DNA from: Amphiscolops sp. MND2022
Taxonomy: Eukaryota
Assembly (NCBI GenBank): GCA_964187785.1
Contig: OZ076409.1
Coordinates: 37,326,001 to 37,390,000 of the forward strand
Reading direction: 5' to 3'
Length of the DNA stretch: 64,000 bases
Shown here: positions 4,901-49,194 of the stretch, piece by piece
Layout of the letters: each line of letters opens with the position of its first letter
Position numbering within the stretch: position 1 is the stretch's first letter
Made by a program: the position numbers and the translations under genes
Notes under the pieces: model-generated
What the model was told of the DNA's origin: nothing
Seen by the model: the letters and a program-made list of their open reading frames with translations, nothing else
Databases searched by the model: none

Positions 4901-6002
4901 ATGAGGAACGATAAATTTTAGATTGAAAATCGAGATGTCGGATATGCCAACCTCCTGTAAACCAAGTTTACAAAATGGTTACCGAATCCTTACGCTGCAT
5001 TTTTAGACACTCAGCTCGTTAGATACACAGTAGCCTTATTTTCATTCCGAAAATATTCTAACAGAAAAACACTAGCTCCATTTAAATAATTTAGTCATTA
5101 AGGCTCTTTGTTGGGCTACTATCGAAGAAAATGGAAAAATGAGTGCAGCGCTTGAGAAAAATAGTTTTGAAAAAATTGAAACTATTTTGTCTTCAGGGAG
5201 TTTTGTTAAAGAATAATCCGTCCAAAACATTGCGTCGTTTTACTCGTTATAATTAATGAACGTGTTTCTGTTACAACCAGGAAAGATGGTAAAATTGTTA
5301 ACCAATTGTTTTCTAGAAGCCATCTAAAGGAGTCATGATCTCATTATAACGAGAATACAGCTAAAAGCCTTCATGTGGTTGTTAACACATCAAGTGATAA
5401 GTATCAAATTTCAGTACTTTCAATGAAAGGGTGAAACAGTATGAAAATTCCACAAGTTTTCTGTTCATTAAACTTGGGGTTTTTTATCGAAAGCAAAACT
5501 ACTTTGAGAATCAAGTTCATTTATATTGACGCAGTGGAAGTAAAAAAATTCTATTAGGTCGATCCATAATGAAGACAGTAATGTATCAAAAATTGGGAAT
5601 TAGTTTGAGAACGAAATGTTGCCAAAATGTGATCCGCTTCAGAGAGAACATACATTATTGGTTTTATTTTAAAAGCAAATCAAACTGAATAAGAGATTAG
5701 ATTGAGAAGGAGGATGGAAGTTATTGAAAAATATTGTTTATTGGAGATTACAAGATTATAAGCAACGTGAGGTATCAATTTGATCTTCTTTCAAACCAGC
5801 GTTGAATATCGCACTGCTTAAATTAAATTCTATTCCAACAATTAATCGAGTGATAAAAAGGATTGTTAAATGTCACAAATGCGTGTTTCCTCAACTGAAA
5901 AACATCTAGGCTTTCATACAAACGGAATAGGAATGTTGAAATGTTTCTCACAAATATTCTAAAAGCGTTCGATTTACAATTTTGAATCAATCAATGGTTC
6001 TA

Positions 6003-6291
6003 CCCAGGTTGTCACGCCATGGCCCGCAATCCATGATTCATCCATGACATGGTCAATGTATGGAAATCCATGAATCATGGATGAATCATGGATGAATCAT
6101 GGATGGAAATCCATGTGCCATATGGCTGAAAAAATTTGAAACGGCCGGTTCCGATTGCCAAAAGTATGACCCTATTTTTGACCACTCTCCATTACTAGAG
6201 CTGAAAAAAATCAAGTTAGAAGCATAATGTCGGACATTCAGTTCAACTGAAAGCAAAGTATTCAGTATTTGAAAATGTCTTTATTCTGGGT
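6003..6291 (+). mobile_element. Partial MITE copy (same family as 26590-27360), truncated by the assembly gap
   Basis: TA|CCCAGGTTGTCACGCCATGG start; colinear similarity with 26590-26915. Confidence 0.75.
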
Positions 6292-6491
6292 NNNNNNNNN
6301 NNNNNNNNNNNNNNNNNNNNNNNNNNNNNNNNNNNNNNNNNNNNNNNNNNNNNNNNNNNNNNNNNNNNNNNNNNNNNNNNNNNNNNNNNNNNNNNNNNNN
6401 NNNNNNNNNNNNNNNNNNNNNNNNNNNNNNNNNNNNNNNNNNNNNNNNNNNNNNNNNNNNNNNNNNNNNNNNNNNNNNNNNNNNNNNNNNN
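6292..6491. other. Assembly gap (200 N)
   Basis: Run of N. Confidence 1.
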
Positions 6492-6870
6492 AGATGAACA
6501 TATCCATTTTTTTTGTGTTTTGCTGAAGAAGAGATTCTTTTCTTTCAGCGCTTAAGTCCAGTGAAACTTGTCTTTGTTTGCCAAATTTCGCCTAGTTGTT
6601 TGTAGATTATAGCTTTTGAAAACTTATTAAACAAGATTCGTTTCGTAGAATTCATTCTCGGAGCCGTAGACTTTACCAATTGACTAATCGGAACCCACAC
6701 AACTTTTCATGATGTGTTCTAAGTTCAGTCAATGATATGATATTTGTGATGAATGAGCAAACGAAGATGAATTTATGAGATGACTACGAGCCGCTTTCCA
6801 GTGTTCGAAGCCATGGAGCTCTTGCCATGATCATGGTTAATCCTGCTAAATCATGGTTAACCATGGTACC

Positions 6871-8309
6871 TGTCACAACCCCACAGTTGTGCTGGAGCTG
6901 TTGGGCAACAACCCTAAACGAGAACAGTTAGGCATCTTCAAGAGAAGGAACAAACAGCTTGATGACCTGAAACTTTAAACATTTCAAACTTTCCCTTCTT
7001 TTGTTTTTTGTTGCTTCAAGTTTCACTTCGCAATTTGGAATTGTCATGTAAATTTCTTAGATTTAATATTTTAACGGTTACAGCTTAACAAGTGCCTAAA
7101 CAATGATGTTTTCACTTTCTGTTGACACGAATGACTATATATAGTCTCAAACTTTCGATTTAGAATGGTTTAAAACTATTTCTGAGCTAATGTTGTGAAC
7201 AGATTGTCATTGACACATTTCTGTGGAAGTTTAATGTTGATAAGTATACGTCACCATGCGGTAATCCGAGTGACGTATATCCTGCGGATTTGCGCTTATA
7301 ACAAGTATTTTTGGTGCTTTTATTTGAGAGTTGATTATGCGTCACTATGCGGAAAACTGGATGACGTATGTGCGGCATGCTACAGTCTTCCAGGGGCTTG
7401 TTGCTTTTGTATAGTTAGATTATTGGAAGTCATGCAATCACCATTTGTAAGTTATAAATAGAATTACGTCACTCTGACGTTAGTTTATTCATAGCATTTT
7501 TGAATTACTGACAACCCTAAAATTGAGTGTCATGCTTTATGATTTTTTCATTTGTAAAAGTTCAGTTTACTTCAGATGAAATTTAACTGGTACCAGAGAC
7601 AGTTGCTTCATAACAGTAAACCCAAACACTGTAAAAGCAGTTTCCTTGATAACTCTTTGTTTCACCGGGATTGTTTTCACAACATTGACGAATAAATTCA
7701 AATTCTTTCTGCACTTTAACCCAATTTCCCTCTTGAGCAAGATGGGAAATAGAAGAAATCGAAGGTCCAGAAGGTTAGAAACTCCGTCCCCGCAGAAAGA
7801 AACAAGCGAAGTACGCATAGAAACTCCAAGTCAAGGTAATGAAACTTTAACTAATGTTAAATTACAAAGTCTAGAAAGTTTAGGTGAAACTGATTTGAGA
7901 CCCAGATTAGTTGAACCCAGCCAAATCAGCAAAGAAATTCAAGCTTGGACTGAGATTTTCGAACAGAAAAACAATGATAGAATCACTAAAATGAGAGAAG
8001 AAATGGAGAACAAATTAGGCGCGATTCTGATGGAGATAAAAACTAGTAAGAGAACATCTATGACAACTGATCCTAGATATGAGATAAACGAAATAGAAAA
8101 TATGCAACCATCGAGATCCGGGGGTAAAAGGTCTTTGGGAGTAAACGCATCTGATAATGAAAATATAGACTCTGAAAAGGAAGATATCCCCCTCAAAGCC
8201 TCAGAAATGAGAGATTTAAGGCATCCCGCTAAACCCATACACCAAAATGATACAACATTAGATGCAACAGTTATCTTTAACAAAGAATCTGATGAGGAGG
8301 ATTACCACA
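6871..8309 (+). repeat. 5' LTR of element A (1439 bp)
   Basis: TGTCACAACCCC...GATTACCACA; direct repeat of 24756-26201. Confidence 0.96.
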
Positions 8310-9487
8310 TGGTGACAGGTGCCAACAAACCACTCCATAGACAAAGCTCTCAAAATACCCAACTTCTAAACGACACCTTAGGATCCCACGCAGACCGCAA
8401 CACTTCTACATCCACAACAAAACCACTTGACCCGGTCAACCAAATTGCCCAGGCTATAGAAAAACTAGCCAATAAAAACTCACAACAATCCTTCTTTCAC
8501 CCTAAAAACACACTCACATTCAATGGAAAAAACGAGAAAAATGAAAAATTCGAATATTTCGATGACTTATTCCACACAACCCTCAAAATGCAGCCAAATC
8601 TCACAGAAGAAATGAAGATCAACCACTTTCATGCACATCTCAGAGGATTGGCGTTAAAAACCTTCAAAAACATCCAGAGAACACCCACAACAACACTGGA
8701 AGACATCCTAAAAGTCTTCCGCCGAAAGTACATCAAACCAGAATCAAGTGCTTCGGCATAACATAGATTTGACCCAGAAAAACCGGGTCACCGACTAACA
8801 TTTCACCGACTAGCATTTGACCGGTTAGATTTCACCGACTAACATTTGACCCAGAAAATCAAAAACTACCCGATTTTTTTGAAGATTTGCAAGAAAGCGC
8901 GGAAAAAGCTTTCGGTGACAATGCACACCATATGATAGAAAATCTACTCTATGCCAAGATGCCACCGCATCTTAAAAAATCCATCAACCAAGCCTATCTG
9001 GAAAATGGCTCATTTGACCAAATCGTCAAACATCTTGAAAGAGAGATGGAACTTATTCGTCTAGAGGCAGACGAAGCCCTTGTCAAAACTCAAATGACCG
9101 TTACGAAAAAAGAACAAAACACTGAAAAACCCAACAAAAAATGACAAAACCAAAAAACAAACTCCGAAAACAGTACCCGACAAAACACTCAAAAATGATC
9201 AATGTCGTTACTGCAAAGATGCCTGCCATATGATGACTGACTGCCCTAAATTAGCTAAAAGACGAAAACTAGAAGAAGACCCGGATGCACCTAAATGTCC
9301 CAATTGCAAGACTCCGGGACACGAGGAAGAAGATTGCTATTTTGGTGCCGATATGGATAATAGGCCACCAAAATGGAACCTAACTGAAGCCCAAAAGAAA
9401 GTTATCGAAGAATACAAGCGAGCTAAAAAGCCAATCAGACCCAGAATCGAAAGAAACCAACAATCCTCGTCGAAGGATTTAAACTAG
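7742..9487 (+). pseudogene. gag: Gag of element A, starting inside the LTR; capsid-like region plus two CCHC knuckles; disrupted
   Basis: ORFs 7646-8761, 8887-9144 and 9230-9487; motifs KINHFHAHLRGLA, CRYCKDACHMMTDC, CPNCKTPGHEEEDC; internal stops and frameshifts. Confidence 0.9.
8310..8322 (+). promoter_or_regulatory. Primer binding site of A (TGGTGACAGG; tRNA identity uncertain, possibly Leu-like)
   Basis: TGG immediately follows the LTR-terminal CA; the same 10-mer follows the 5' LTR of C. Confidence 0.75.
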
Positions 9488-12400
9488 AAACGCCACGACT
9501 TTACACAAAATCAGCACAAAAACCAAACTCCGCCGATGACTGGCAGCATCAACTGAGTCCAAAACCCACAAAAACATCAGCCTTTGACACCGACTCAACA
9601 ACGCAAAATTCTCAACAATCAACACTGGAAACATCACCAGAAGAACTATATGAACTCTTTCAAGACACACCAAACAACTACTTCACAAAACAACCAACCC
9701 ACCCCGAAACAGACCCAAACTTAGACATTCACCACGAATCTCCCATCAAAAACCATGTCACAATAAAAACTTCTTGCGATGATCAAAAACAACCCTTATT
9801 GAATGAAGACCTCTCTGAACACATACAATTTGACAAAGAACGAAATTTATCATGTCTACCAATCTCAACCTCTTTGACATTGAAGCGAAAACGCCATATG
9901 TACTACATTCCAATGGACTTCGAAAAACTCACACTTGATGGTCTTATTGATACCGGAGCCCTTACAAGTGCAATCTCCGAACAAGAGCTCAACAAAATCA
10001 AGTTGCTAGCAAATAAAGCAATAAAAGAAACTGGTCCCCCACCAAACTTTCAAATTATGGTGGCCAATGGACAACTGGAAGTCCCGATTGGTACTGTTCT
10101 ACTTGAATTTGAAGTGGCCGACTTCATGTTGAAGGAAAATTTCATCATTATGAAAAACTTACCAAACCCGTTAATCGGATTGTGTTTTCTCCGCAGAAAT
10201 AACGCAATCTTTGATGTCACCCAAGGCATCCTAACTTTCCCCTTTCAATGCAGCTCAAACCCGACACCCAAACATCAATACGACAAGCAACACCATTGTT
10301 TGCTGAAAATACATATACCTTACAACCAGGCGAAACTCTAGCAATTGCAAGCAGAATGCCCCATCTGATGGACCATGACGCAACTGGAATAGTCACCCCA
10401 TCACATCAGTTTGAAAACCACGATAGCATCTTCATCACTGCGTCACTCAGTACTGTCAACAACAATGCTATCGGATACCAAATCATCAATTTTTCTGATT
10501 TACCATATACAATAACCCTTGATACCCATTTAGCGGATTTCAAGATACTGACACCAGAGCAAATCAAACATATACAGCCAGTGGACCCAGCGTTACTGTC
10601 CTTCATGATACAACATGAGGAAACAACGGACGGCTACATAAACGAACTCCTCAAAGTTCCAAAAACAAACTCAGAACAGGAGTCATACTGGTTCCCTACT
10701 CCTGAAGAACCAGGTGACCCAGCAACATACACTCCATTTCAACAACGAATCTACAACGAAATCCCAGAACTCAAAGAACTTGAGAAACTAAACCCACAAC
10801 ATAACGAAAATTCCAGAAAAACTTTCCTTTCAAACTTCGACTGGACCGACACAACACTCAGTCCTGACGAACGGAAAGAAATTGAAGAAATTCTCATTGA
10901 ATTTCACGATATTTTTGCCAGACACCGTTTTGACATTCGCATAAATCGCGAATTCAAAGTAAAACTAGCGCCAAACGATGAGAGGTCTGCCTATTGCCAA
11001 AATCTGCCAACTCCTATCAATCTCAAAGATGATATTACAGTAGAACTTGCACTCCTACATAAGTATGGCATCATTACAACACTACCTTTTTCTAAATACG
11101 CAAGCCCAATATTTGCACAACGCAAACCCAACGGGCGCCTCAGACTCCTGGTTGATCTAAGGAAAATCAACAATCTCATCACCGAAGAATACGTCAACAA
11201 CAACCAACCAGTAAGCACCCTATCGGACGCAGCCCAACATATGGCAGGGAAAAAGCTTTTCTGCAAATTGGACTGCTCCCAGGCTTACCACTGCCTGCAG
11301 ATGGCGGATTACCAATCCATCCAAATGCTCGCTTTCAATTTTGCAAGTAGAACATTCGCTTATCGTCGCCTTGCCCAGGGTCTCAGCAGATCACTTTCTG
11401 CCTTTTCAAGCTTTATGAGAGAGTACCTGGACAGAGCAATTAAAGCGGACCAATGTGCACAGTATGTCGATGACATTGGCATCGCGGCAAATGACACAAA
11501 ACAAGTCTGTACGAATATCAAAACTGTTTTTGAATGCATACGCAGTGCAGGATTAAAACTCTCCATGTCAAAATGCCACTTCGGACTCAAACAGGTCGAC
11601 TTTCTGGGACGCACAATCGCACCACATGGAGTTGCCCCTCAAGCCGACAAAGTAAAGGACTTCCTCTCAAAACTTCGCTTCCCGAAATCAAAAAAGGCGT
11701 TACAGAGGTATATCGGGTTTCTAAAGTATTACCGAAATTACATACCACGCCTTTCGGAACGGCTCTCACCGTTCTTCAAACTCCTCAAAGAAACTTCCAA
11801 ATTCTATGTACCGACAAATTTGGTAGAAGACTTCGCGAACCTCAACAAACTCCTAGAAAATTCTTGCCAGTTAGCATTAAAACAACCACTGAAAAACAAG
11901 CAACTTATAGTCATGTCCGATGGAAGTTTCACAGCTGCCGGATATGCTATCATGATAGAGGATGACCCAAACCAGAAGCTTCACTCAAAACGCAAAACAT
12001 TTGCACTCATAGCTTTCGGTTCAAAAACTTTCAATCCTACACAGACGAAAATGTCAATTTATGCAAAGGAATTTCTGTCAATATTTTTTGCATTTGTTGA
12101 ATTCGGACACCTCATGAGGGGTAGTACCTTCCCAGTAATCGTGTTTACAGACAATCGATCTGTAACCAGATTTTTCCAACCAAAAATGATCCCTCCAGCA
12201 CTTTGGAATGCCTGCGATTACGTATTGCAATACAATTTCGTGATCGCCCATGTAGCTGCAACAATGAACACTGCTGCTGACTTCTTATCTAGAACGGAGG
12301 TCGACCCAACAGAAAAACTGGAAATGACAATCCGCAACGACATTCACAGGAAAGCGATTGAAGTGAATATTCAATCAACTGGCATCGTTGAAGAAGAACA

Positions 12401-14350
12401 AATTTATGTTCTCCCAGATGATGAAATTGACAATAATCAACTATGGGAAGAAAAGCAAAACATTCGAAATCAAGCCCAAACCGAAACACACAATGATCCA
12501 GAAAACGCTGTTTCCGAGCTACAACAATTTCACAAACCTACATCAGGTCTGATCTCCTGCTCTTCGGGATACTTTAAGGATAATGCAAGAATCCGCCTTG
12601 AGCAGAATAACGACATAGTCCTAAGAAACCTCAGAGCAAAACTCAAAGGAAACCCTTTTGACGAGAATGAACTAGCGTCAGACTACCGATACCAGCACTA
12701 CTTACAGAACATAACACGAATAGAGATTAAACAAGAAGTCCTCACACGTAAATACTACACCGACACTGGAACTATATCTCGCAACCAAATCCTCCTACCA
12801 ATCCAACTCCTAGACGAATTTCTTCAGGCCTTACATGGTCATAATTCAAACCATCCAGGAATTACGAAAATGATCCAAGAAGCAAGACAAAAGTACTACT
12901 ACCCATGTATGGCAAAATACATCAAAAAATGGGTTAGTAATTACCAAATCTGCATCCAAACGAAACGCATAAACAATGATCTCCTAAGGACAGAACTTCT
13001 TAATTGTCCGGAATGGTATCTCGAACCGGAAGACATTTTGCAAATGGACATTATACCAAACCTTCCCCCTAGTGGAGGCTATGATCATATCATCACAGCA
13101 ATAGGTGTCTTCTCAAAATACTTGTTTGCCTAACCTGTAACTCGTGTTACTGCAACAGCAGTATCAAGAGTTATCATGGACATCTTATGCAAACACACAT
13201 ACCTTCCAACAACGATAATCACGGACACTCAATTCAATGCACAAGTAACTCACGAAGTTGCGGCAGTACTTGGAATTGAAATGAAATACGCAACAATGAA
13301 ACATGCCCAAACAATAGGACTCCTTGAGAGAACTCATGCATCATTGAAAATGCACCTAAAAGCCGCAACAGGCGAATTTAGGAACAACTGGCATAAATAT
13401 CTCCCCTTGGCAGTCCTCAATCACAACACCACATACCATGCCTCACTCGGTTGTGAACCTTCACGAGTCTTTCATGGTGGATACCACACAATATCCTGGA
13501 CTATAAACTTGGATATAACGTAACCCAAGATACCAACCGCAATTGGATGTAGCAGAAGAAATTCAGAAACGCATGAAAATCCTTCTGGATCAAACCAAGA
13601 AGAACATCATGCAATCATACCTCAAACACAAAGCTTACTATGATCGCAAAACGAAAGCAGCTCCGCTCGAAACAACGGATTACTGCTACATTCTTAACCC
13701 AAAAGCCGACACTCAAGCGACAAAAATACCATTCCGAGAATTCAGATGGTGCGGAGCATATAAAGTAGAAAAAGTGCTCCCTAACAATAACTACATTGTC
13801 CGGAGATTTGGGACTAACAAAACGCAACTATTACATAGGATTCGTCTACGAAAATTCACTCCGCAAGCGCCCTTAGCAGACATTTTTGTCCGAGAAACCG
13901 ATTGGCAAAAAGATGACCAAATGCCTATAACAAATGATGATCTATATGCCCAATCATGGAACACGAACTTTGGTTCAAATCCTTTTGATGATGGTCCTGC
14001 AGAATATTCATTAAATACTGAAGACACAGAATACATCCCAATTCAAATACCCGAAGAAAACCGCCCACCCTCCCCAGGATCTTCAGAAATAAGTTGGGAA
14101 AGCCCAGTGGAACAGACCACTGAACCGGATGAAAACCATGAAAATGAAATACCACAGCAAACCTTTGAAGATGAACAAAGTACCCAAAAAACTCAAAAAG
14201 ATGCAAGAATTTCAGTTAATGATGATATCCAAAAAAACCCCAGAAAATCCACAAAAAACCCCATCACAAGAAGAACCCATAAATACCCGTGGTGATAAAT
14301 ACAACTTACGTCCTAACCCCAAACCAAACTACTCAGACAAATACAGATTG
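9480..14350 (+). pseudogene. pol: Pol of element A (PR, dUTPase-like spacer, RT, RNase H, integrase), a few lesions
   Basis: LIDTGA protease; QYVDDI RT; VMSDGS...YAKEFL...FTDN RNase H; HGHNSNHPG integrase Zn region; QMDI/ITD/LERTH core; C-terminal KYNLRPNP. Frameshift ~10245, stop at 13131, later frameshifts. Confidence 0.95.
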
Positions 14351-14447
14351 ATGAAAACAATTCTCCGACAAAACATTATCCCATACTGGTTTTATACTCC
14401 CAGCATTTTTCTTTTTTCTTGCACACTCAATAATAATAAAGCAAGAC

Positions 14448-14724
14448 TCTTATAGAGTTAGATTATCGTGAAAGGATAACTAATGTTTATTGTCGTATTC
14501 ACTGTGAATCTTGTTTCAGGTCAAAAGACGGGAAGCAATACTCTATTCATATAAGACCATATGGCAACTGAGCCAATGTTAGAGTTGGAACTCTATAGTT
14601 TTACTGGTACACTATTTGTAAATAAGTATTGAAATAAATGTACAAATTGGCTAAATGTTTATGTCACTCATATGTCTTTAATTAATTGTTTTTGAGTTTC
14701 TTCTTTCGACAGAGCCCTGTCACA
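14448..14724 (-). repeat. 3' LTR of element B (277 bp)
   Basis: Direct repeat of 17795-18077, preceded by the PPT on the minus strand. Confidence 0.93.
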
Positions 14725-14827
14725 TTCCCCTCTCTGTTCTTTACGTTCGGTCAACAAATTTGAACATAAATAGTTGTGGCTCTTCTATTTGCTTCCGCTA
14801 GTTGTTAATTATTTCTACAGTGGTATT

Positions 14828-17795: not shown

Positions 17796-18077
17796 GTTAT
17801 AGAGTTAGGTTATCGTGAAAGGATAACTAATGTCTATTGTCGTATTCACTGTGAATCTTGTTTCAGGTCAAAAGACGGGAAGCAATACTCTATTCATATA
17901 CATATAAGACCGTATGGCAACTGAGCCAATGTTAGTGTTGGAACTCTATAGTTTTACTGGTACAGTATTTGTAAATAAGTATTGAAATAAATGTACAAAT
18001 TGGCTAAATGTTTAAGTCACTCATAAGTCTTTAATTAATTGTTTTTGAGTTTCTTCTTTTGACAGAGCCCTGTCACA
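17795..18077 (-). repeat. 5' LTR of element B (283 bp)
   Basis: TGTGACAGGG...ATAACA on the minus strand, followed by PBS-like TGTCGCTGCAAG; carries an extra CATATA relative to the 3' LTR. Confidence 0.93.
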
Positions 18078-23737: not shown

Positions 23738-24802
23738 ATGGATAATCTACAATTCAATATTGAGGAAGAATTAATGTTGCCATCGTTGTCCCCTGCAGTG
23801 ATCGACGTCTCAAGTGACTCAGGCGATGAATTCATTGTTCATCCGGGAGATCTGTCAGAAATAGAGGACAGATTCAGACCGGGTGGCCCTCGATCAGATG
23901 TCATGACTGGCTTCATGGGAGCGGCAACAGCTTCCCTGTTCCCCACCCAAACGAGAAGATCAGACGAAGACGAGATAATCGACATCTCTGGGACCCGAAT
24001 TGAGCGCCAATTAGTGGATTTAATGGAAGAAGACCAACACGATTACGAATCCCCACCAACCTCATTTATAGACACCGAACTAGAGGACTCTCCAATGTCT
24101 CCGTGGGAATCGCCCCACAGGGTTGAGGGTTCAACAAACAGTTATGGGAGGCCGACAGCCGCAATTTTACCAACTCCCCGTGACAATTCTCAAAGAAGTA
24201 TACCAGTGAACAGGCCTGCTGCGAACTACACACCAAATTTTGTGGCTAGCGCAAGTAACTTCCAAATAACACCGCTCAAAGTTTCTAACAATCATCAGCG
24301 AACGATCTACCCAAGCAACTACAACCAGCAAGAAATAATCATCACTGCCAATATGAACCCACCTATGGCTGAAAATATGGTGGTTTATAACAATGCTCCA
24401 CTGATGATACAAATACCCCCAATCGGAAGAAGAATGGACATTCCTCATCAAACCCTTGTTACGAATAATCAACAAGTGTTCAATTTCCCTTTCAATGTGG
24501 AACACAGTTCCAAGTTACTGCTGATCCCGACCAGTGAAAGACAGATGCCTAGATTGTTCCCAACCGTAATGCCACACGTTGCAGGCTTTTGCGATTGGTG
24601 TGGAAAATGCTATGATCAACTAGCATAGGAGAGTTTGGGCGAGTATCTAATAGCAACCGCCTACGACGCCGAGACAGTGAGAGACCGCGGGGTAAGATCC
24701 CGAGCATTCATTGATGGTTTTCAAGCTGCTCTCTTCTCGTTTAAAAGTGCAGGACTGTCACAACCCCACGCTTATGCTGGAGTTGTTGGGCAACAACCCT
24801 AA
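23738..24802 (+). CDS. Sense accessory ORF of element A (acidic, SIM-like motifs, CxxC); one in-frame TAG at 24626, otherwise open into the 3' LTR
   Basis: ORF 23711-24628; the frame stays open for 57 more codons (ESLGEYL...AGLSQPHAYAGVVGQQP*) and stops at 24800-24802 inside the LTR; TATA-like CTATATAAG at ~23516. Confidence 0.7.
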
Positions 24803-26201
24803 ACGAGAACAGTTAGGCATCTTCAAAAGAAGGAACAAACAGCTTGATGACCTGAAACTTTATACACTTCAAACTTTCCCTTCTTTTGTTTTATGTTGCT
24901 TCGACTTTCACTTCGCAATTTGGAATTGCCATGTAAAATTCTTAGATTTTTTAATTTAACGGTTACAGCTTAACAAGTGCCTAAACAATGATGTTTTCAC
25001 TTTCTGTTGACATGAATGACTTTATTTAGTCACAAACTTTCAATTTAGAATGGTTTAATACTATTTCTGAGGTAATGTTGTGAACAGATTGTCATTGACA
25101 CATTACTGTGGAAGTTTAATGTTGATAAGTATACGTCACCATGCAGTAATCCGAGTGACGTATATGCGTCATCCTGTGGATTTGCGCTTATAACATGTAT
25201 TTTTGGTGCTTTTAATGAGAGTTGATTATGCGTCACTATGCGGAAAACTGGATGACGTATGTGCGGCATCCTACAATCTTCCAGGGGCTCGTTGCTTTCG
25301 TATAGTTAGATAATTGGAAGTCATGCAATCACCATTTGTAAGTTATAAATAGAATTACGTCACTCTGACGTTAGTTTATTCATAGCATTTTTGAATTACT
25401 GACAACCCTAAAATTGAGTGTCATGCTTTATGATTTTTTCATTTGTAAAAGTGCAGTTTACTTCAGATGAAATATAACTGGTACCAGAGACAGTTGCTTC
25501 ATAACAGTAAACCCAAAAACTGTAAAAGCAGTTTCCTTGATAACTCTTTGTTTCACCGGGATTGTTTTCACAACATTGACGAATAAATTCAAAGTCTTTC
25601 TGCACTTTAACCCAATTTTCCTCTCGAGCAAGATGGGAAATAGAAGAAATCGAAGGTCCAGAAGGTTAGAAACTCCGTCCCCGGAGAGAGAAACAAGCGA
25701 AGTACGCATAGAAACTCCAAGTCAAGGTAATGAAACTTTAACTAATGTTAAATTACAAAGTCAAGAAAGTTTAGGTGAAACTGATTTGAGACCCAGATTA
25801 GTTGAACCCAGCCAAATCAGCAATGAAATTCAAGCTTGGACCGAGATTTTCGAACAGAAAAACAATGATAGAATCACTAAAATGAGAGAAGAAATGGAGA
25901 ACAAATTAGAGGCGATTCTGATGGAGATAAAAAGTAGTAAGAGCACATCTATGACAACTAATCCTAGATCTGAGATGAACGAAATAGAAAATATGCAACC
26001 ATCGGGATCCGGGGGTAAAAGGTCTATGGGAGTAAACGCATCTGATAATGAAAATATAGACTCTGAAAACGAAGATATCCCCCCTCAAAGCCTCAGAATT
26101 GAGAGATTTAAGGCATCCCGCTAAACCCATACACCAAAATGATACAACATTAGATGCAACAATTATCTTTAACGAAGAATCTGATGAGGAGGATTATCAC
26201 A
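24756..26201 (+). repeat. 3' LTR of element A (1446 bp), carrying a copy of the Gag N-terminal ORF
   Basis: Direct repeat of 6871-8309, followed by TSD GTACC. Confidence 0.96.
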
Positions 26202-26589
26202 GTACCCTTGTCAAGATCCAAGATCATGGCAAATCATGATACATGGAACACTTGTCAAGATCATTGCAAGGGTTGGCAAGATCTTGACAAGATAACCATG
26301 GTTTGTCATGGTTCTTACCAATGATAACATGTCAAAAATTCGATTAGACTATTTCCAGTTATTCAATTGAATATCGGTTGGCGTTTTTACGGAAAAAAGA
26401 CGTTAGTAGTGATTTTTCTTCCACCCTCACACAAGCTGTCCACTTTTAATTTGTTCAGGTTCATAGCTTCCTGGAGTAAGTCTAAAATGCATTCACTCTG
26501 CTTTTTCGTCGTTCACAATGCTACACGGCACCATAGGGTCCCCTCTATGATTCATGTTATTGTTTTCAGTTTGGGAAAAGCATTTGCTA

Positions 26590-27759: not shown

Positions 27760-28882
27760 TGTCATGCCCGCCAAGCATGAAGGAATTAAACGAACCCTAA
27801 AATATTAATTCATACATCAAACTCACTAAGATACAGATCATCATGAAAATACATTGCAGTAATTTATTCCCCGAACAATACAGTTGAAAATATAACAACT
27901 GGATCTAACAGTCATCAATACTAAATTCATTCGTGTTATTGTGCATCGTTTAGAAACCAAGACTGAAATATTCAGTCATCATAATGATTCTCACATGTAA
28001 GACTGGAACAATCAGTCATCAGATATCGTGATAGTTCATCATTTAATCATTCTTCATCCATTTTTTATATTACATGTAGAGTATTACCAGAATACTCGAT
28101 CATTCATAACAACAACATTTCATTCATTTAAATCAGCAATTTGTACAACGCCATATAGTAATTAACCTCCAAACGATAATTGAATCAGTCACCATGATGA
28201 TAAGGATACACGGTAGTAAAGCCTCAGTTTAAGAGGTAATTGAGACAATTGCGTGCTAAAATGACTGGTGATTGCGGTCATACTAGATCAAACATGAATA
28301 ATTAAACGCCGATTATCACCCGCCACGACTGTAACCACCAGTCGTCAAGTGCAATTAAATAGCAATTAGTAAATCGAATGTCATTGGCTAAAAGGAAAGT
28401 TGCTAACACACTTTTATAGTTACACAATCGGGTAAAACCGAACTCACTCACGAGTTGTAACTATTGATAGAACAAGTTGCCTACTACCTTGCTTACAAGT
28501 TATCAATCCTTATCATAACATTAACGCATTTCAATTCAACTAAAAACTTCCAGACTTTTCATGGTAACTACTAGATCTCAAAGTAGCCAAAATAGACAAG
28601 TAGAAACTGAAAATATGGACAGATCAAGCGATAATGAAAGCGAATCCAGTTTCCCTGATCTCTTATCCAGAGACCAAATCGTAGACCTTGACTCTGACGA
28701 CGTATTAACTAGACATCAAAATAGTAATAATTATAGCATTGATCAACGATTTAACGAGATAAATAGACAAATCGGAGACCTTACCAACATAGTCCTTACG
28801 TTAACCAATCAGTTTGCCTCCGTTAATGGAGAAGGGAACAGACTGAACACAGCGACTACAAGTGCTAACAGTCGTTCCGACA
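27760..28882 (+). mobile_element. Solo LTR (1123 bp) of a third family of the same lineage; encodes a Gag N-terminus-like ORF (MVTTRSQ...) from 28561
   Basis: TGTCA...GACA with perfect TSD GCTAC (27755-27759 and 28883-28887); an empty-site paralog of the target lies at ~27069-27127. Confidence 0.88.
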
Positions 28883-29934: not shown

Positions 29935-32146
29935 TGTCACGACCCGCTCCCGGTCGTGGGTGTGAATGGTGTTTTGCACTTGGTCGTGGAAGAGGTCGCG
30001 GCTACTGCAAGTATCATTAAACTAAACTGCTTAAAACTAATGTAATTCTACTTACAGTACAGCTAAAACCACTTGTAGATAATCTCCCAAAACAAAGTCT
30101 AACGTAAGCGTTACAGAAGATTTTCAGAAATGACTCTAAACTAGCTAAAACTTCCGATCTAATGTTTTCACACGCAACACCGTTTTATTTCCGGTTTTGT
30201 CTTCTGAGTTTTCCATTCCAATCTAAATACTAAATAATTTTGCAGACGGGATCATTTTGGCGCTCCACACTAAGATGAAAACACAGAAACAACGTTTAAC
30301 TCTGAGATCTCAACGGAGTCCATAAGATCTAAAATGAAAGAGCATACAAAAACAGAGCGGAAATGTATTCCAATATTAAAATAGTTGTTAAATATCTACT
30401 TAAAATCGCAGTCAAGTGATTTTAAGTATATGTTTAGAACGTTATGACAGCGTCACTCAACTAGGCTAGTAACGGGTGTTTCTATTTTTACGGACCAATA
30501 GCGTCGCTTGCCACCGGAATTATATGAGCTCGTACCAATAGAATTACGCTTGGTTGCCCCTAGCAACGCTTACTAGCTAAGAAAAGAGAATAGAATCGCC
30601 TACGCTCTCCGTTTTCACTCCGCTTGCTACTGCTGCTCAGCTATAAGCAATCTTAATACGTACGTAGCATCTACGGAGCAGATTGTAGAATTGTATTCCG
30701 CTCTTCAGCTATAAGCAATCTTAATACATACGGAGCATTTACGGAGCAACTTAAGAAATTGTAACTAAGAAATACTGCAATGAATGAATTCTTTGAAAGA
30801 TTTTTTCTGAATCGATGCACCTTAAAAAATCTTAAGATTAAGTTTACATAAAGAATAGTTGTACTGTGAGATAGGATTATAAAGTGAACGTAACACTCGC
30901 GTTGCTTTGAAGTTTGTATAAGTTTTGATATGATGCAGTAATACTCATTCCAGTAATCTCTCCTATTTCTTTTCTATTCTTGCCCAAACCTCCCCCGGGT
31001 GCTATGATGTTGTATTTTTATACGTCTTCTTAGACCTTTGAGTCTGAATACTTTGTGTGCTAACTGCTAAACAAGTTTTGGCAAACGGACCATTTCCGTG
31101 GCATTTAGTTGATGCTAAAAATCAAATGTTTTGTCTTGTGTTCCAATGCATGTAAAGTTCGTAATAATTTGCCATTCTCTAGGCAATTCGTTTCTGAAAG
31201 GCTTCTCAGCATCACTTTGTTCTTCATTTTGATCTCCCAAGTGTTTCTGGCTCTAAAATATTTACATCCATCATAATTCCGTCGCTATTTTTGAGTGTCA
31301 TTCTTTTACTCCGAATTTCAACTTTCAAGTTAGGAAGCTGACTAATTGATCACGCCGTCGTGCCTGCGTCGATGAAAATGAAAGCTAGACATTTGTTTTG
31401 CCGCAATTTTGAAGCTTAAACAGGAAATGGATCGCCTGAACGAAAATGATTTCACCAAAATTTTACGGAACACTGACGCAACTAGTAATTTTGATACCTG
31501 ATTTTATGACGCGGGACTGAAATAATATGAATCATTAGCGCATTTTGTTGAACAAAACCGATTTTTGTGATACCTAGGAATTTTAGGTGAGGAACAAATG
31601 ATGCTGGAAAGGTATAAATATGTAAAACATACATGTAAATCAGTTAGTTTTTTGACCTGCTTTGTAACAACTAGTTCTGTTCCGTTTTCATAACGTGTTC
31701 AAAAGAAAACTTAAATATTTGAAGAATTCAACTTTTCCAAAGATACTATCTCTCTCTCTCGATCGAAATGACAACTAGAAGCCAGAAAGGGAAAGCTGTA
31801 GCCGAGTTAGTCTCCGGTGATTTCGAAACCTCTGTAACCGAAAACTTTCCACCTGAAACCCTTGTAGCTAGTTCTAGCAAGATTCCTAGGATAGAACCAG
31901 AGGGTTTGGCTGAGATAAAAACGTCTCTAAGGAAAGATATTATGTCTGATCTAACTAGAATACTTGCAGAAAACCAAAAAGAAATGCTTAAACTGATAGC
32001 ACCTTTAAACAAGAAACAAACTGTTCACACGAACGTCCAAGACTCAGACTCCGAACCAGAGAATCTTTCCGTAGCAAGGACGTCTACCCCCATCAATACT
32101 CATAATGCGACTAGCTCTAAAACAATACCGGTAAATAGTCGTAACA
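29935..32146 (+). mobile_element. Solo LTR (2212 bp) of a subfamily of element C
   Basis: TGTCACGACCCGCTCCCGGTCG...AATAGTCGTAACA; near-identical to the C LTRs in the middle; flanks GGAAA and AGGAA are not a clean TSD. Confidence 0.9.
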
Positions 32147-32292: not shown

Positions 32293-34507
32293 TGTCACGA
32301 CCCGCTCCCGGTCGTATTTTTACTTGCTGCTCTGGAATACCAGGACTCGGCAGAGGACATGGACAAGGGCAGAGTAAACATTTTTAAACTTTGTTAAACT
32401 AATCAAAATTCTACTTACAGTACAGTTAAATAAGTGCGAATAATTTTCCAAATACGGAATTCAACGTAAGCGGTACGGAGGATTTTCAGAAATGACTCTA
32501 AACTAGCTAAAACTTCCGATCTAATGTTTTCACACGCAACACCGTTTCATTTCCGGTTTTGTCTTCTGAGTTTTCCATTTCAATCTACATACTAAATAAT
32601 TTTGCAAACGGGATCATTTTGGCGCTCCACACTAAGATGAAAACACAGAAACAACGTTTAACTCCGAGATCTCAACGGAGTCCATAAGATCTAAAATGAA
32701 AGAGCATACAAAAACAGAGCGGAAATGTATTCCAATATTAAAATAGCTGTTAAATATCTACTTAAAATCGCAGTCAAGTGATTTTAAGTATATGTTTAGA
32801 ACGTTATGACAGCGTCACTCAACTAGGCTAGTAACGGGTGTTTCTATTTTTACGGACCAATAGCGTCGCTTGCCACCGGAATTATATGAGCTCGTACCAA
32901 TAGAATTACGCTTGGTTGCCCCTAGCAACGCTTACTAGCTAAGAAAAGAGAATAGAATCGCCTACGCTCTCCGTTTTCACTCCGCTTGCTACTGCTGCTC
33001 AGCTATAAGCAATCTTAATACGTACGTAGCATCTACGGAGCAGATTGTAAAATTGTATTCCGCTCTTCAGCTATAAGCAATCTTAATACATACGGAGCAT
33101 TTACGGAGCAACTTAAGAAATTGCAACTAAGAAATACTGCAATGAATGAATTCCTTGAAAGATCTTTTCTGAATCGGTGCACCTTAAAAAGTCTTAAGAT
33201 TAAGTTTACATAAAGAATAGTTGTACTGTGAGATTATAAAGTGGATTATAAAGTGAACGTAACACTCGCGTTACTTTGAAGTTTGTATAAGTTTTGATAC
33301 GATGCAGTAATAATCATTCCAGTAATCTCTCCTATTTCTTTTCTATTCTTGCCCAATCCTCCCCCGGATGCTATGATGTTGTATTTTTATATGTCTTCTT
33401 AGACCTTTGAGTCTGAATACCTTGTGTGCTAACTGCTAAACAAGTTTTGGCAAACGAACCATTTCCGTGGCATTTAGTTGATGCTAAAAATCAAATGTTT
33501 TGTCTTGTGTTCCAATGCATGTAAAGTTCGTAATAATTTGCCATTCTATAGGCAATTCGTTTCTGAAAGGCTTCTCAGCATCACTTTGTTCTTCATTTTG
33601 AACCTCCAAGTGTTTCTGGCTCTAAAATATTTACATCCGTCATAATTCCGTCGCTATTTTTGAGTGTCATTCTTTTACTCCGAATTTCAACTTTCAAGTT
33701 AAGAAGCTGACTAATTGATCACGCCTGCGTCGATGAAAATGAAAGCTAGACATTTGTTTTGCCGCAATTTTGAAGCTTAAACAGGAAATGGATCGCCTGA
33801 ACGAAAATGATTTCAACAAAATTTTACGGAACACTGACGCAACTAGGAATTTTGATACCTGATTTTATGACGCGGGACTGAAATAATATGAATCATTAGC
33901 GCTTTTTGTTGAACAAAACCGATTTTTGTGATACCTAGGAATTTTTAGGTGAGGAACAAATGATGCTGGGAAGGTATAAATATGTAAAACATACATGTAA
34001 ATCAGTTAGTTTTTTGACCTACTTTGTAACAACTAGTTCTGTTCCGTTTTCATAACGTGTTCAAAAGAAAACTTAAATCTTTGAAGAATTCAACTTTTCC
34101 AAAGATACAATCTCTCTCTCTCTCTAAAATGACTACTAGAAGCCAGAAGAGGAAAGCCGTAGCTGAGTTAGTGTCAGGAGATTTTGAAGCTTCTTTAGCT
34201 GAGAACAATTCTACTGAAAACCTAATAGCTAGTTCCAGTAAAAACCCTAGACTTGAGCTCGAAAACTTGGAGGAGATAAAGACAACTCTGAGAAAAGAGA
34301 TCATGTCTGATTTAACGAAAATACTCGCTGAAAATCAAAAGGAAATGTTCAAACTAATAGCACCTTTGAACAAGAAACAAACTGTCCACTTGAATGTTCA
34401 AGACTCTGACTCTGAACCTGAGAATGTTTCCGTAACAAGGACGTCTACCCCCGTCAAAACTCATACTGCGACTAACTCTAAAACAACACCGGTAAATAGT
34501 CGTAACA
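32293..34507 (+). repeat. 5' LTR of element C (2215 bp)
   Basis: TG...CA direct repeat; TATA-like GGTATAAATA at ~33973. Confidence 0.96.
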
Positions 34508-35406
34508 TGGTGACAGGAGTCCTCAATGACTCTACCAACCAACCCACGAAAAGATCAAAACAACAACGCGCATCCAACGAGCAAACAAAAGACCGTCCTT
34601 CAACATCTAAAATACTGTTCGCGCCACAACCGCAAACATTTCCAGCTACCAACCTACTTCCGATGCCGAAAGCACTGCTTCGCTTCCAGTCTTCGATGGT
34701 AAGTCCGAAAAGTTTGAACTTTTTGAGGACCTATTCCGAAATAATATCAAAATGTACCCTCACCTAACTGAGATACAAAAGATCAACTACTTCCATTCAC
34801 TCCTACGAGGAAACGTGAATTTTGACCCCACTAAACAGAAACTCCATGAGTCCTTGACGCCCTGCAAAAACAGCAAAAGAAGCATTCGGTTCAGAAGCAC
34901 AAAGTTTCATTGATAAAGCAATCTACGCCAAAATGCCGGATCACGTCAAGAAGATCCTCAACAGAGCGTATTTGGCAGATAAACCCTACAATGACATAGT
35001 GTTGCATCTTGAGAGGGAAATGAGGTTAAACGGACTAGGTGCGCCCGACGAAACAACCCTAGTCCCACTCAACACAGTGGACGCCGTAGTGACGGACAAT
35101 AAAAAAGACCAACAACAACGAGGCCATTGCTTTCACTGTGGCAAATATGGCCACTATAAAGCACAGTGTCGCATACTCCAACGTGAGCGTTACAATATCG
35201 CCAAAACAACCACAAAAGACCCAGCCCAAAACGAAGCACCCAAACCCAAGTGTGATACATGTGGCAAGATGCACAAAACTGAGAACTGCTGGAACGGAGC
35301 CAATGCGGCAAATGACCCCAGAAAGAAGAAACGAGAATTCACCATTCCAACCAACAAAATCAGCGAACAACCTGTACCCACACTGTCCTCCCAGCCAAAA
35401 AACTGA
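34129..35406 (+). pseudogene. gag: Gag of element C, starting inside the LTR; internal deletions; two Zn knuckles
   Basis: MTTRSQKRK... through RNMVTGVLN; AKMPDHVKKILNRAYL (compare A AKMPPHLKKSINQAYL); CFHCGKYGHYKAQC, CDTCGKMHKTENC. Confidence 0.9.
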
Positions 35407-45443: not shown

Positions 45444-46285
45444 ATGAACAGCTACTCTTTAGTCATCGACATATCTTCTGATGAAGAAAACGCAAAAACG
45501 AGCACACCACTGAAAACGCTACCGCTCAACATGATTGGCTCACTGCGTGATTCATCAATCGAAGTCTATCGTGGAAGCGATGCGGAAATGGTTTCCATTT
45601 CCGGGTCACCCGTAACGGCACCGACGCCTAATAAGAAAAGGAAAACAGGAAGAGTCACGTTCAATCTGCAGACAGCCGACTCTGACACGGACTACAATGA
45701 AGAGCCAGATTCCCCGCAACGCCTACCTTCCCCAATAAAACGTACTCCTGTTCTAAAGGAGACGGAAAATATCCCTGTACTGGGAAATGACAGAATGCCA
45801 AACTCGGGAAAATTAAACCACTTGAATGAGCCTTCCTTGGCGGAATTGGAAGCTATGTACGGCCTGGACTTAGAGGACCGAATTTACCTCGCATCCTTAG
45901 GCCGTGGACGCGCGCGACACGCAACAAACATAAATCTGCCGAGCTCGAAAGAAAATCTGCGTCCTAACATCATAATTAGACCCCCCGAATGCTGTCCGGA
46001 GGAAGTAGAACGACTAGAGAAAGAAGTCCGCGAATTAGACGAAGAAGAAAAGAAAATGAGGGACATGAAGGCGGGAAGAGAACGTGGCCCCCTTCAATCA
46101 AGAAGATACAATGGTCGCCCCCCGTGACAATAAAGAAAGAAATCCCGCACTGCCACGCTTTACCCCTGTCACTCTCATCAAGAGGGGCCCTGTCACGACC
46201 CGCTCCCGGTCGTAATTTTACTTGCTGCTCTGGAATACCAGGATTCGGCAGAGGACATGGACAAGGGCAGAGTAAATACATTTAA
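45444..46285 (+). CDS. Sense accessory ORF of element C (SIM-like VIDISSDEE, basic NLS-like KKRK, coiled coil); probable frameshift in the C-run at ~46120; ends in the 3' LTR
   Basis: ORFs 45435-46127 and 45989-46285; the latter enters the LTR as L-S-R-P in the same frame as the A ORF (L-S-Q-P). Confidence 0.65.
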
Positions 46286-48413
46286 ACTTTGTTAAACTAA
46301 TCAAAATTCTATTTACAGTACAGTTAAATAAGTGCGAATAATTTTCCAAATACGGAATTCAACGTAAGCGGTACGGAGGATTTTCAGAAATGACTTTAAA
46401 CTAGCTAAAACTTCCGGTCTAATGTATTCACACGCAACACCGTTTTATTTCCGGTTTTATCTTCTGAGTTTTCCATTCCAAGCTAAATACTAAATAATTT
46501 TGCAAACGGGATCATTTTGGCGCTCCACACCAAAATGAAAACACAGAAACAACGTTTAACTCCGAGATCCCAACGGAGTCCATAAGATCTAAAATGAAAG
46601 AGCATACAAAAACAGAGCGGAAATGTATTCCAATATTAAAATAGTTGTTAAATATCCACTTAAAATCGCAGTCAAGTGATTTTAAGTAAATGTTTACAAC
46701 GTTATGACAGCGTCACTCAACTAGGCTAGTAACGGGTGTTTCTATTTTTACGGACCAATAGCGTCGCTTGCCACCGGAATTATATGAGCTCGTACCAATA
46801 GAATTACGCTTGGTTGCCCCTAGCAACGCTTACTAGCTAAGAAAAGAGAATAGAATCGCCTACGCTCTCCGTTTTCACTCCGCTTGCTACTGCTGCTCAG
46901 CTATAAGCAATCTTAATACGTACGTAGCATCTACGGAGCAGATTGTAAAATTGTATTCCGCTCTTCAGCTATAAGCAATCTTAATACATACGGAGCATTT
47001 ACGGAGCAACTTAAGAAATTGCAACTAAGAAATACTGCAATGAATGAATTCCTTGAAAGATCTTTTCTGAATCGGTGCACCTTAAAAAGTCTTAAGATTA
47101 AGTTTACATAAAGAATAGTTGTACTGTGAGATTATAAAGTGGATTATAAAGTGAACGTAACACTCGCGTTACTTTGAAGTTTGTATAAGTTTTGATACGA
47201 TGCAGTAATAATCATTCCAGTAATCTCTCCTATTTCTTTTCTATTCTTGCCCAATCCTCCCCCGGATGCTATGATGTTGTATTTTTATATGTCTTCTTAG
47301 ACCTTTGAGTCTGAATACCTTGTGTGCTAACTGCTAAACAAGTTTTGGCAAACGAACCAATTCCGTGGCATTTAGTTGATGCTAAAAATCAAATGTTTTG
47401 TCTTGTGTTCCAATGCATGTAAAGTTCGTAATAATTTGCCATTCTATAGGCAATTCGTTCCTGAAAGGCTTCTCAGCATCACTTTGTTCTTCATTTTGAT
47501 CTCCCAAGTGTTTCTGGCTCTAAAATATTTACATCCATCATAATTCCCTCGCTATTTTTGAGTGTCATTCTTTTACTCCGAATTTCAACTTTCAAGTTAC
47601 GAAGCTGACTAATTGATCACGCCGTCGTGCCTGCGTCGATGAAAATGAAAGCTAGACATTTGTTTTGCCGCAATTTTGAAGCTTAAACAGGAAATGGATC
47701 GCCTGAACGAAAATGATTTCAACAAAATTTTACGGAACACTGACGCAACTAGGAATTTTGATACCTGATTTTATGACGCGGGACTGAAATAATATGAATC
47801 ATTAGCGCTTTTTGTTGAACAAAACCGATTTTTGTGATACCTAGGAATTTTTAGGTGAGGAACAAATGATGCTGGGAAGGTATAAATATGTAAAACATAC
47901 ATGTAAATCAGTTAGTTTTTTGACCTGCTTTGTAACAACTAGTTCTGTTCCGTTATCATAACGTGTTCAAAAGAAAACTTAAATCTTTGAAGAATTCAAC
48001 TTTTCCAAAGATACAATCTCTCTCTCTCTCTAAAATGACTACTAGAAGCCAGAAGAGGAAAGCCGTAGCTGAGTTAGTGTCAGGAGATTTTGAAGCTTCT
48101 TTAGCTGAGAACAATTCTACTGAAAACCTAATAGCTAGTTACAGTAAAAACCCTAGACTTGAGCTCGAAAACTTGGAGGAGATAAAGACAACTCTGAGAA
48201 AAGAGATCATGTCTGATTTAACGAAAATACTTGCTGAAAATCAAAAGGAAATGTTCAAACTAATAGCACCTTTGAACAAGAAACAAACTGTCCACTTGAA
48301 TGTTCAAGACTCTGACTCTGAACCTGAGAATGTTTCCGTAACAAGGACGTCTACCCCCGTCAAAACTCATACTGCGACTAACTCTAAAACAACACCGGTA
48401 AATAGTCGTAACA
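46191..48413 (+). repeat. 3' LTR of element C (2223 bp), carrying a copy of the Gag N-terminal ORF
   Basis: Direct repeat of 32293-34507, followed by TSD TCAAC. Confidence 0.96.
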
Positions 48414-49167: not shown

Positions 49168-49194
49168 GGTGGCCATTGAGAGGCACGTGAACTC

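What the first reader, a model, noticed from the sequence alone, without database searches (positions are those of the whole stretch)
7742..8330. Gag N-terminus is encoded inside the LTR and reads in frame through the LTR/PBS junction in three LTR families
Seen: in A, an ATG at 7742 gives 189 codons +1 nt to the LTR end; in C, 34129 gives 126 codons +1; in the solo LTRs, 31768 gives 126 +1 and 28561 gives 107 +1. The phase is always the same, so the terminal A plus the PBS TGG forms an in-frame ATG (H-M-V-T-G in A, N-M-V-T-G in C). The LTR-encoded peptides have TTRSQ-like or basic starts, a predicted coiled coil and an acidic patch. Known: gag normally starts downstream of the PBS. Inference: R/U5 is coding here, the PBS is translated, and two Gag isoforms (long, and junction-ATG) are possible.
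Basis: partly seen in the sequence, partly recalled or inferred. Interest (0 to 1): 0.75.

Follow-up and report, generated by a model that had tools for sequence, protein, structure and literature searches.

The report
Gag head encoded inside retrotransposon LTR
A large clade of Ty3/gypsy jumping genes in this genome writes the first 100-215 amino acids of its shell protein (Gag) inside its end repeat, in one conserved reading frame that runs through the tRNA priming site; this is a much longer form of a layout known from yeast Ty1, and the second start codon at the repeat's edge is likely only a by-product.

Summary
Confirmed. ATGs at 7742, 34129, 31768 and 28561 lie 568, 379, 379 and 322 nt (all 3n+1) before CA-ending LTR ends, in frame with the PBS and gag. 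The layout is genome-wide: 7,527 LTR/PBS junctions (control 1). In the first 30 on contig C1, 24 have at least 100 open codons upstream in the gag frame and 0 do in either other frame. The LTR-coded head is under frame-specific purifying selection (pN/pS 0.22-0.29; shifted frames 0.67-1.64). An AUG-free leader precedes it (median 161 nt; shuffled 40), often behind a TATA box and initiator. The PBS matches tRNA-Leu(CAG). The head is predicted to be disordered with one long helix, and is mosaic between subfamilies. The junction ATG is likely a by-product: the PBS stop blocks one phase, and every head examined (29 of 29) holds internal AUGs. No RNA data were available, so TSS, poly(A) site and translation are inferred. 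Yeast Ty1 already has its PBS inside GAG; what differs is the scale and the Ty3/gypsy setting. The scan reported this before, twice in this genome and in four notes from other genomes. New variant of a known kind.

The parts
6871..8309 (+). 5' LTR of element A (TG...CA, 1,439 bp; 39% of it coding)
   Evidence: TSD GTACC with the 3' LTR
7453..7484 (+). TATA box plus initiator-like TTAGT 27 nt downstream (predicted promoter of A)
   Evidence: prediction only, upstream AUGs at 7532, 7539, 7576 follow it
7691..7696 (+). AATAAA 51 nt before the ATG, candidate poly(A) signal of A
   Evidence: at -50 or -51 in 22 of 28 mapped family-A copies; not mapped by RNA
7742..8308 (+). LTR-encoded Gag head of A, 189 codons (basic start, predicted helix at residues 59-108, acidic disordered linker)
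8309..8321 (+). [quoted passage not shown]
8322..9487 (+). Rest of gag in A (capsid, two Cys/His knuckles); this copy has a premature stop at 8759-8761 and is broken further on
   Evidence: (Ty3_capsid E 0.0016, below the curated cut-off)
9427..14455 (+). pol of A, in broken pieces: protease, RT, RNase H, integrase
24756..26201 (+). 3' LTR of A; head copy from ATG 25633, frameshifted near 26079
   Evidence: 57 substitutions in 1,438 aligned bases versus the 5' LTR
27760..28882 (+). Solo LTR of family B; TATA-like/initiator at 28355/28381; head ATG 28561, 107 codons, runs 5 codons into flanking DNA
   Evidence: TSD GCTAC
29935..32146 (+). Lone family-C LTR; head ATG 31768, 126 codons; promoter nearly identical to element C but head 23% different (mosaic)
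32293..34507 (+). 5' LTR of element C; TATA 33975, initiator TCAGT 34002, head ATG 34129 (126 codons)
34507..34520 (+). Junction of C: terminal A plus PBS TGGTGACAGGAGT (13-nt match to tRNA-Leu(CAG) with CCA added)
46191..48413 (+). 3' LTR of C; head ATG 48035, frame ends 2 codons into the flank
   Evidence: TSD TCAAC

Best explanation
In this Ty3/gypsy clade the gag reading frame begins at an ATG 300-650 bases inside the 5' LTR and runs in frame through the LTR end and the tRNA-Leu priming site into the capsid, so the LTR-encoded head is very likely translated as the N-terminal fifth to third of Gag from an RNA predicted to start just upstream, and the ATG at the LTR edge is likely an internal Met. 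Shown: the frame, its phase across families, purifying selection specific to that frame, an AUG-free leader, and the PBS/tRNA match. Inferred steps: (1) Pol II starts about 125-260 nt before the ATG, at the TATA/initiator. (2) The ribosome scans the AUG-poor leader to the in-LTR ATG. (3) It reads U5, the CA end and the PBS as ...x-M-V-T-G, then capsid and two zinc knuckles; Gag-Pol would follow by a frameshift at a slippery heptamer. (4) The same RNA stretch, once packaged, binds tRNA-Leu(CAG) and templates a predicted 500-830-nt strong-stop DNA, which copies the head into both LTRs. The head (basic tip, disordered linkers, one 30-50-residue amphipathic helix) most likely acts as a matrix-like assembly or targeting arm: the helix for Gag-Gag or host contacts, the basic tip for nucleic-acid binding or nuclear import. 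That function is a guess at about 0.4.
For: Window anatomy. Close copies: head open and in phase in 21 of 28 (A), 19 of 28 (C) and 23 of 27 (B) mapped copies; 10 of 28 A copies carry one 561-563-codon ORF from the LTR ATG to the gag stop. Unselected junctions: 24, 0 and 0 of 30 open for at least 100 codons upstream in the three frames; 21 of the 22 with gag open downstream also have the head open. Selection: shared variants pN/pS 0.28/0.19/0.19 against private 0.71-0.76, no shared stops in the heads (Fisher p 6e-4, 3e-7, 3e-3); dN/dS 0.15-0.28 for diverged pairs; frame control 0.22-0.29 against 0.67-1.64. No head has a stop at the LTR end in any family. AUG-free leader median 161 nt against 40 shuffled. 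TATA plus initiator in 9 of 29 against 2.0 expected. M1 and VTG invariant in 23 Gags whose capsids are 26-87% identical. Capsid fold resembles PNMA2/dArc (E 0.005-0.02).
Against: No RNA, ribosome or protein data. In family A the TATA-predicted start leaves two or three upstream AUGs, so the A start site may be mispredicted or the leader carries short uORFs. TATA plus initiator was not found in 20 of 29 loci. Family B's internal gag shows weaker shared-variant constraint (0.5, few copies). The antisense frame sharing third positions also gives low ratios (0.32-0.37), as expected, but it holds stops. The head has no Pfam match and no Atlas hit at 0.9 or above, so its function is not shown. The families share ancestry and are not independent trials.
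Confidence: 0.85

Rival explanations
1. Two Gag isoforms: besides the long form, a headless Gag starts at the junction ATG, from a shorter internally initiated RNA, and may restrict copy number as Ty1 p22 does.
For: The junction ATG has a good context: purine at -3 in 24 of 30 and always G at +4. It is nearly invariant. A different, nested gypsy in this window does start gag at its junction ATG (17795, minus strand). Ty1 makes an N-terminally truncated Gag from an internal RNA (PMC4974528 and PMC4551931, passages).
Against: The ATG is forced by the LTR's CA abutting the tRNA-dictated TGG. TGG-TGA closes one phase (0 of 30 open), leaving two, and common descent explains the rest. The -3 G follows from the terminal inverted repeat (TGTC...GACA), and -3 is C or T in 6 of 30. 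All 29 heads hold internal AUGs: 109 in frame, 148 out of frame against 139 expected, so there is no depletion that leaky scanning would need. No internal promoter was looked for or found.
Confidence: 0.15
2. The head is a separate accessory protein of the LTR, like U3-encoded retroviral genes (nef, sag; recalled), made from the 3' LTR or its own RNA, and its phase with gag is incidental.
For: The head is far more divergent than the capsid (median identity 0.16 against 0.45 between family representatives) and is exchanged between subfamilies as a block.
Against: No family has a stop at the LTR end; at 3' and solo LTRs the frame ends at random places in the flank (108-178 codons in 12 of 13 family-B cases, one broken earlier). 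Phase with gag is kept across head lengths of 103-215 codons. The promoter motifs lie upstream of the head, not downstream.
Confidence: 0.05
3. The open frame is a chance or relic feature of A-rich LTR sequence, and gag starts at the junction.
For: Low-complexity, A-rich sequence can be poor in stops; the head has no known domain.
Against: The other frames of the same DNA carry 8-27 stops. Synonymous changes are in strong excess (binomial p 1e-10, 5e-21, 4e-7). Shared indels upstream of the ATG are mostly not multiples of three, whereas the heads show none (B, C) or one compensating pair (A).
Confidence: 0.02

Closest known systems
Ty1 of Saccharomyces cerevisiae (Ty1/copia, Pseudoviridae)
   Same: [quoted passage not shown] Mosaic elements with a swapped gag are also known (PMC7055915, passages).
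   Different: Ty1 is a copia element with a tRNA-iMet primer, and only about 13 codons lie in its LTR (number recalled, not from a call). Here 103-215 codons, including a predicted folded helix, lie in 1.1-2.2 kb LTRs of a Ty3/gypsy clade with a tRNA-Leu primer.
Ty3/gypsy LTR retrotransposons (Metaviridae), e.g. Ty3; Arc/PNMA2 capsids
   Same: TG...CA LTRs, 5-bp TSD, pol order PR-RT-RH-IN, Ty3_capsid-like Gag with PNMA2/dArc as best fold matches.
   Different: In Ty3 the PBS segment adjoins the 5' UTR, and long-LTR plant elements such as Diaspora start gag 873 bp after the LTR (PMC1142308, passages). The lineage within Ty3/gypsy was not assigned: the nearest outside RTs found are 57-66% identical and unnamed.
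Ty1 p22/p18 restriction factor
   Same: Model for a headless Gag from an internal AUG.
   Different: p22 needs an internally initiated RNA; none is shown here.
Long-LTR insect gypsy elements Woot, Ulysses, Osvaldo (recalled)
   Same: Very long LTRs; I have an uncertain recollection that ORF1 begins inside the LTR in some of them.
   Different: Not verified: the Woot paper was not held and the one paper listed was not read. If true, it would be a direct gypsy precedent and lower the novelty.

Membership tests
Ty3/gypsy (Metaviridae) | Direct LTRs ending TG...CA with a short target-site duplication | tested here: met
Ty3/gypsy (Metaviridae) | pol order protease, RT, RNase H, integrase | tested here: met
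   gag-asp_proteas, RVT_1, RT_RNaseH, Integrase_H2C2, rve in this order
Ty3/gypsy (Metaviridae) | tRNA primer site next to the 5' LTR | tested here: met
   12-13 nt match to tRNA-Leu(CAG) plus CCA
Ty3/gypsy (Metaviridae) | Polypurine tract before the 3' LTR | tested here: inconclusive
   short, imperfect purine runs in both elements
Ty3/gypsy (Metaviridae) | Gag with retroviral-type capsid and zinc knuckle | tested here: met
   Ty3_capsid E 0.0016, under the curated cut-off; fold matches E 0.005-0.02; PF00098 on homologues; Cys/His knuckles
Errantivirus-type (env-bearing) gypsy | env ORF with transmembrane segment after pol | tested here: not met
   the sense ORFs before the 3' LTRs have no Pfam hit and no hydrophobic segment; only these two window ORFs were tested
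Ty1/copia (Pseudoviridae) | Integrase before RT | tested here: not met
Ty1-like layout (works-like comparison) | gag frame starts upstream of the PBS and includes it | tested here: met
Ty1-like layout (works-like comparison) | RNA 5' end upstream of the in-LTR AUG and translation from it | not testable with these tools
   no RNA run listed; indirect support
Ty1 p22-type restriction | Internally initiated RNA giving a truncated Gag | not testable with these tools
   only leaky scanning was tested, and it is disfavoured
Named Ty3/gypsy lineage (Osvaldo, Mag, Micropia/mdg3, CsRn1 and others) | RT phylogeny with reference elements | not tested
   no named reference sequences were returned by the tools

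The most novel reading that the evidence does not exclude
The LTR-borne Gag head is a swappable specificity cassette with a second life. Old head alleles are shuffled onto a shared promoter and capsid, and because every solo and 3' LTR keeps promoter, leader, ATG and a stop-less head, thousands of loci could make head-only or head-host fusion proteins. These would act as a copy-number-sensing brake on particle assembly and as a standing source of new genes.
Probability: 0.15. Interest if true: 0.8.

Novelty: new variant of a known kind. Interest (0 to 1): 0.5.

Why it matters
LTRs are treated as non-coding in annotation, so Gag in this clade is easily called from the junction Met and loses its first third (13 of the 42 representative proteins that hold the junction motif start there). 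Biologically, one RNA stretch must serve as U5, integration end, primer site and coding sequence. The strong-stop DNA would be unusually long (predicted 500-830 nt). Each leftover LTR is a ready-made promoter plus open frame without a stop. With at least 7,500 junctions in this genome, the clade is a tractable system for asking how translation and priming share one site, and whether solo LTRs feed back on mobility.

Tried and rejected
RNA evidence: no RNA holder listed; no reads were laid. A search for a poly(A)-tailed retrocopy after the family-A AATAAA found none, which says nothing about the site. Literature: 10 full-text searches listed no paper that describes a long LTR-coded Gag head in gypsy elements. 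Phrase matching is literal, most subscription and older papers are not held, and supplements were not read. One search used a guess of the host group that no call supports. Passages of PMC3601003, PMC11117352, PMC4402516, PMC7175516 and bioRxiv 2021.07.15.452536 gave no precedent. Outside relatives: 17 metagenome loci with RT 57-66% identical are short contigs, and none held the junction motif searched, so the range of the layout beyond this genome is open. Protein searches returned unnamed relatives only. ESM Atlas: head alone, best score 0.82, lead only. Rfam: nothing at E up to 0.1 in 6800-9000. Two short pattern counts were uninformative. Self-association of the head helix was not modelled and stays open. 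Recombination breakpoints were considered as a way to map the R region and rejected: they fall near the ATG, inside the head and in U3, and can arise by ordinary template switching.

Full report
Setting. The window lies on contig C1 of a 1.07-Gb genome; no call identified the host. Self-comparison and end inspection give two full Ty3/gypsy elements and two lone LTRs. Element A has LTRs 6871-8309 and 24756-26201 (TSD GTACC). Element C has LTRs 32293-34507 and 46191-48413 (TSD TCAAC). A family-B solo LTR lies at 27760-28882 (TSD GCTAC), and a further family-C LTR at 29935-32146 with imperfect flanks. pol runs protease, RT, RNase H, integrase. Both window elements have broken gag and pol frames.

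Observation. The ATGs at 7742, 34129, 31768 and 28561 are 568, 379, 379 and 322 nt from the last LTR base, all 3n+1. The terminal A and the PBS then read ATG GTG ACA GG, i.e. M-V-T-G. The PBS TGGTGACAGGAG(T) is the complement of the 3' end of a host tRNA. A pattern search found 1,015 such 3' ends (control 1); ARAGORN called tRNA-Leu(CAG) in 2 of the 10 loci examined and nothing in 8; the gene ends ...CCCACTCCTGTCA.

Close copies. For each family I took the 30 best-scoring genomic loci, the window's own included (from 834, 1,839 and 412 candidates), so these sets lean to close relatives. 28, 28 and 27 could be mapped over both ATG and LTR end; 2, 2 and 3 were dropped. The head is open and in phase in 21 of 28, 19 of 28 and 23 of 27. 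Ten of 28 A copies carry a single 561-563-codon ORF from the LTR ATG to the gag stop.

Selection. Variants shared by two or more copies, which have likely passed through replication, give pN/pS 0.28, 0.19 and 0.19 in the heads of A, C and B, with no stops. Private variants give 0.71-0.76. The contrast is significant in each family (Fisher p 6e-4, 3e-7, 3e-3; sites are not fully independent). Diverged pairs give dN/dS 0.15-0.28. The same DNA read in shifted frames gives 0.67-1.64; only the antisense frame that shares third positions is also low (0.32-0.37), and it holds stops. Shared indels are many and mostly frame-breaking upstream of the ATG, absent in the B and C heads, and a compensating +2/-2 pair in A. 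Constraint on the head is similar to or weaker than on internal gag in A and C (0.07, 0.15); B's internal value (0.5) rests on few copies.

Clade-wide test. The junction word CATGGTGACAGGAG occurs 7,527 times (reversed control 1). In the first 30 matches along C1, not otherwise chosen, 24 have at least 100 open codons upstream in the junction-ATG frame and none do in the other two. Of 22 with gag open downstream, 21 also have the head open. Twenty-three Gags from this set and from A, B and C align with M1 and VTG invariant. Heads are 103-215 codons long, capsid identity between family representatives is 26-87% (median 45%) and head identity has a median of 16%. Among 120 database homologues of A Gag, 103 have MVTG at residue 100 or later, 10 earlier and 7 lack it; these are unnamed and probably come from the same or a related host.

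Start of the RNA and of translation (inferred). A TATA box followed 26-27 nt later by an initiator-like T(C/T)A(G/T)T sits upstream of the ATG in A (7453), C (33975), the lone C LTR (31613) and, with a weaker box, B (28355). Nine of 29 genomic heads show this pair, against 2.0 expected. The stretch before the head ATG is free of AUG for a median of 161 nt, against 40 in shuffles (maximum 71). Twenty-six of 29 have at least 116 nt; the three exceptions start at Mets that look internal to broken heads. Against a simple picture, family A keeps AUGs at about -234 and -210, downstream of the predicted start. An AATAAA at -51 in A would put the poly(A) site before the ATG and make the head pure U5; most C copies have no such signal there. 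No RNA run was listed.

The junction ATG. TGG-TGA closes one phase (0 of 30 open), so only two phases are possible, and shared ancestry explains why one is used. The context is often strong (purine at -3 in 24 of 30), but this follows from the terminal inverted repeat and the tRNA. Every one of 29 heads contains AUGs, with no depletion of out-of-frame ones (148 against 139 expected). A headless isoform would therefore need an internal transcript, as for Ty1 p22. A small unrelated gypsy nested in A does start gag at its own junction ATG (17795, minus strand). This suggests, as inference only, that the junction Met could be an ancestral start that was extended upstream into U5.

The head protein. 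AlphaFold2 on a natural family-A Gag (562 aa, 23 rows; pTM 0.25) gives a disordered head with one confident helix at 59-108 (pLDDT 73-91), then a helical capsid. The best fold matches are PNMA2 and dArc capsids (E 0.005-0.02, none at 0.001). The B head gives a helix at 60-90. Heptad periodicity is significant in 11 of 29 heads, mainly B-like ones. N-termini hold 2-7 basic residues in the first 15, and a TRSQ/RKQ-type motif occurs in 17 of 29. No transmembrane segment is present. The likeliest role is an assembly or targeting arm; it is not shown.

Mosaicism. Element C and the lone C LTR differ by 2.2% in the promoter but 23% in the first 250 nt of the head (dN 0.11, dS 0.86 over the head). Promoter and head trees of family C reject each other (AU p 0.04 and 1e-52; the trees were taken from FastTree and short alignments). 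Four A copies carry another family's U3 and first 60 or so codons, joined inside the head with the frame kept.

Comparison. Ty1's PBS lies in GAG (PMC4974528, passages), so translation through a PBS is known; mosaic gag is known too (PMC7055915, passages). The usual gypsy layout has gag after the PBS (Ty3; Diaspora, PMC1142308, passages). Ten literature searches listed no description of a 100-215-codon LTR-coded Gag head, but the library lacks most older transposon papers, and a recalled lead on Woot/Ulysses could not be checked. Earlier unchecked notes of this scan report the same layout twice in this genome and short versions in other genomes; they are not counted as evidence.

Verdict. The feature is real, selected and clade-wide. 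New variant of a known kind, interest 0.5.

Noticed in passing
window 14450-18077, minus strand: Small gypsy element nested in A (LTRs of about 280 bp); its gag ORF starts exactly at the junction A|TG (17795) with a stop three codons upstream, the opposite of the host element's layout.
   Followed up: partly
window 18186-21495 (-) and 40922-43779 (-): Elements A and C both carry antisense ORF pieces between pol and the 3' LTR that are distantly related (21-28% identity, E about 1e-8), one with a Cys/His finger-like segment. No Pfam hit. Earlier notes call this a disarmed transposase gene; not tested here.
   Followed up: partly
window 23738-24628 (+) and 45444-46127 (+): A sense ORF of 296 and 227 codons just before each 3' LTR, without Pfam hit or hydrophobic segment, so not env-like.
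   Followed up: partly
window ~9478 and ~35397: Slippery heptamers TTTAAAC (A) and AAAAAAC (C) just before the gag stops, consistent with a -1 Gag-Pol frameshift; frameshifting itself untested.
   Followed up: no
window 48894-58002: BEL/Pao-like element (label from recalled motifs) with 274-bp LTRs; no long frame crosses its LTR/PBS junction.
   Followed up: partly
G000:C8 about 35.59-35.63 Mb: Large tandem array of tRNA-Leu-type 3' ends at about 240-300-bp spacing; 1,015 matches genome-wide. An abundant primer pool for this clade is possible.
   Followed up: no
window 6000-6291, 26587-27360, 62396-62443: Copies of a CATGG-rich repeat family with palindromic parts; element A is inserted next to one and the B solo LTR lies near another. 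A 200-base N gap lies at 6292-6491.
   Followed up: no
window 30632-30763, 32994-33125, 46892-47023: 68-bp tandem duplication in the U3 part of family-C LTRs, a possible enhancer repeat.
   Followed up: no
G000:C1 about 17.04-17.05 Mb: Six GATTACCACA words at 2.2-2.9-kb spacing, possibly a tandem array of A-type LTR-containing units.
   Followed up: no
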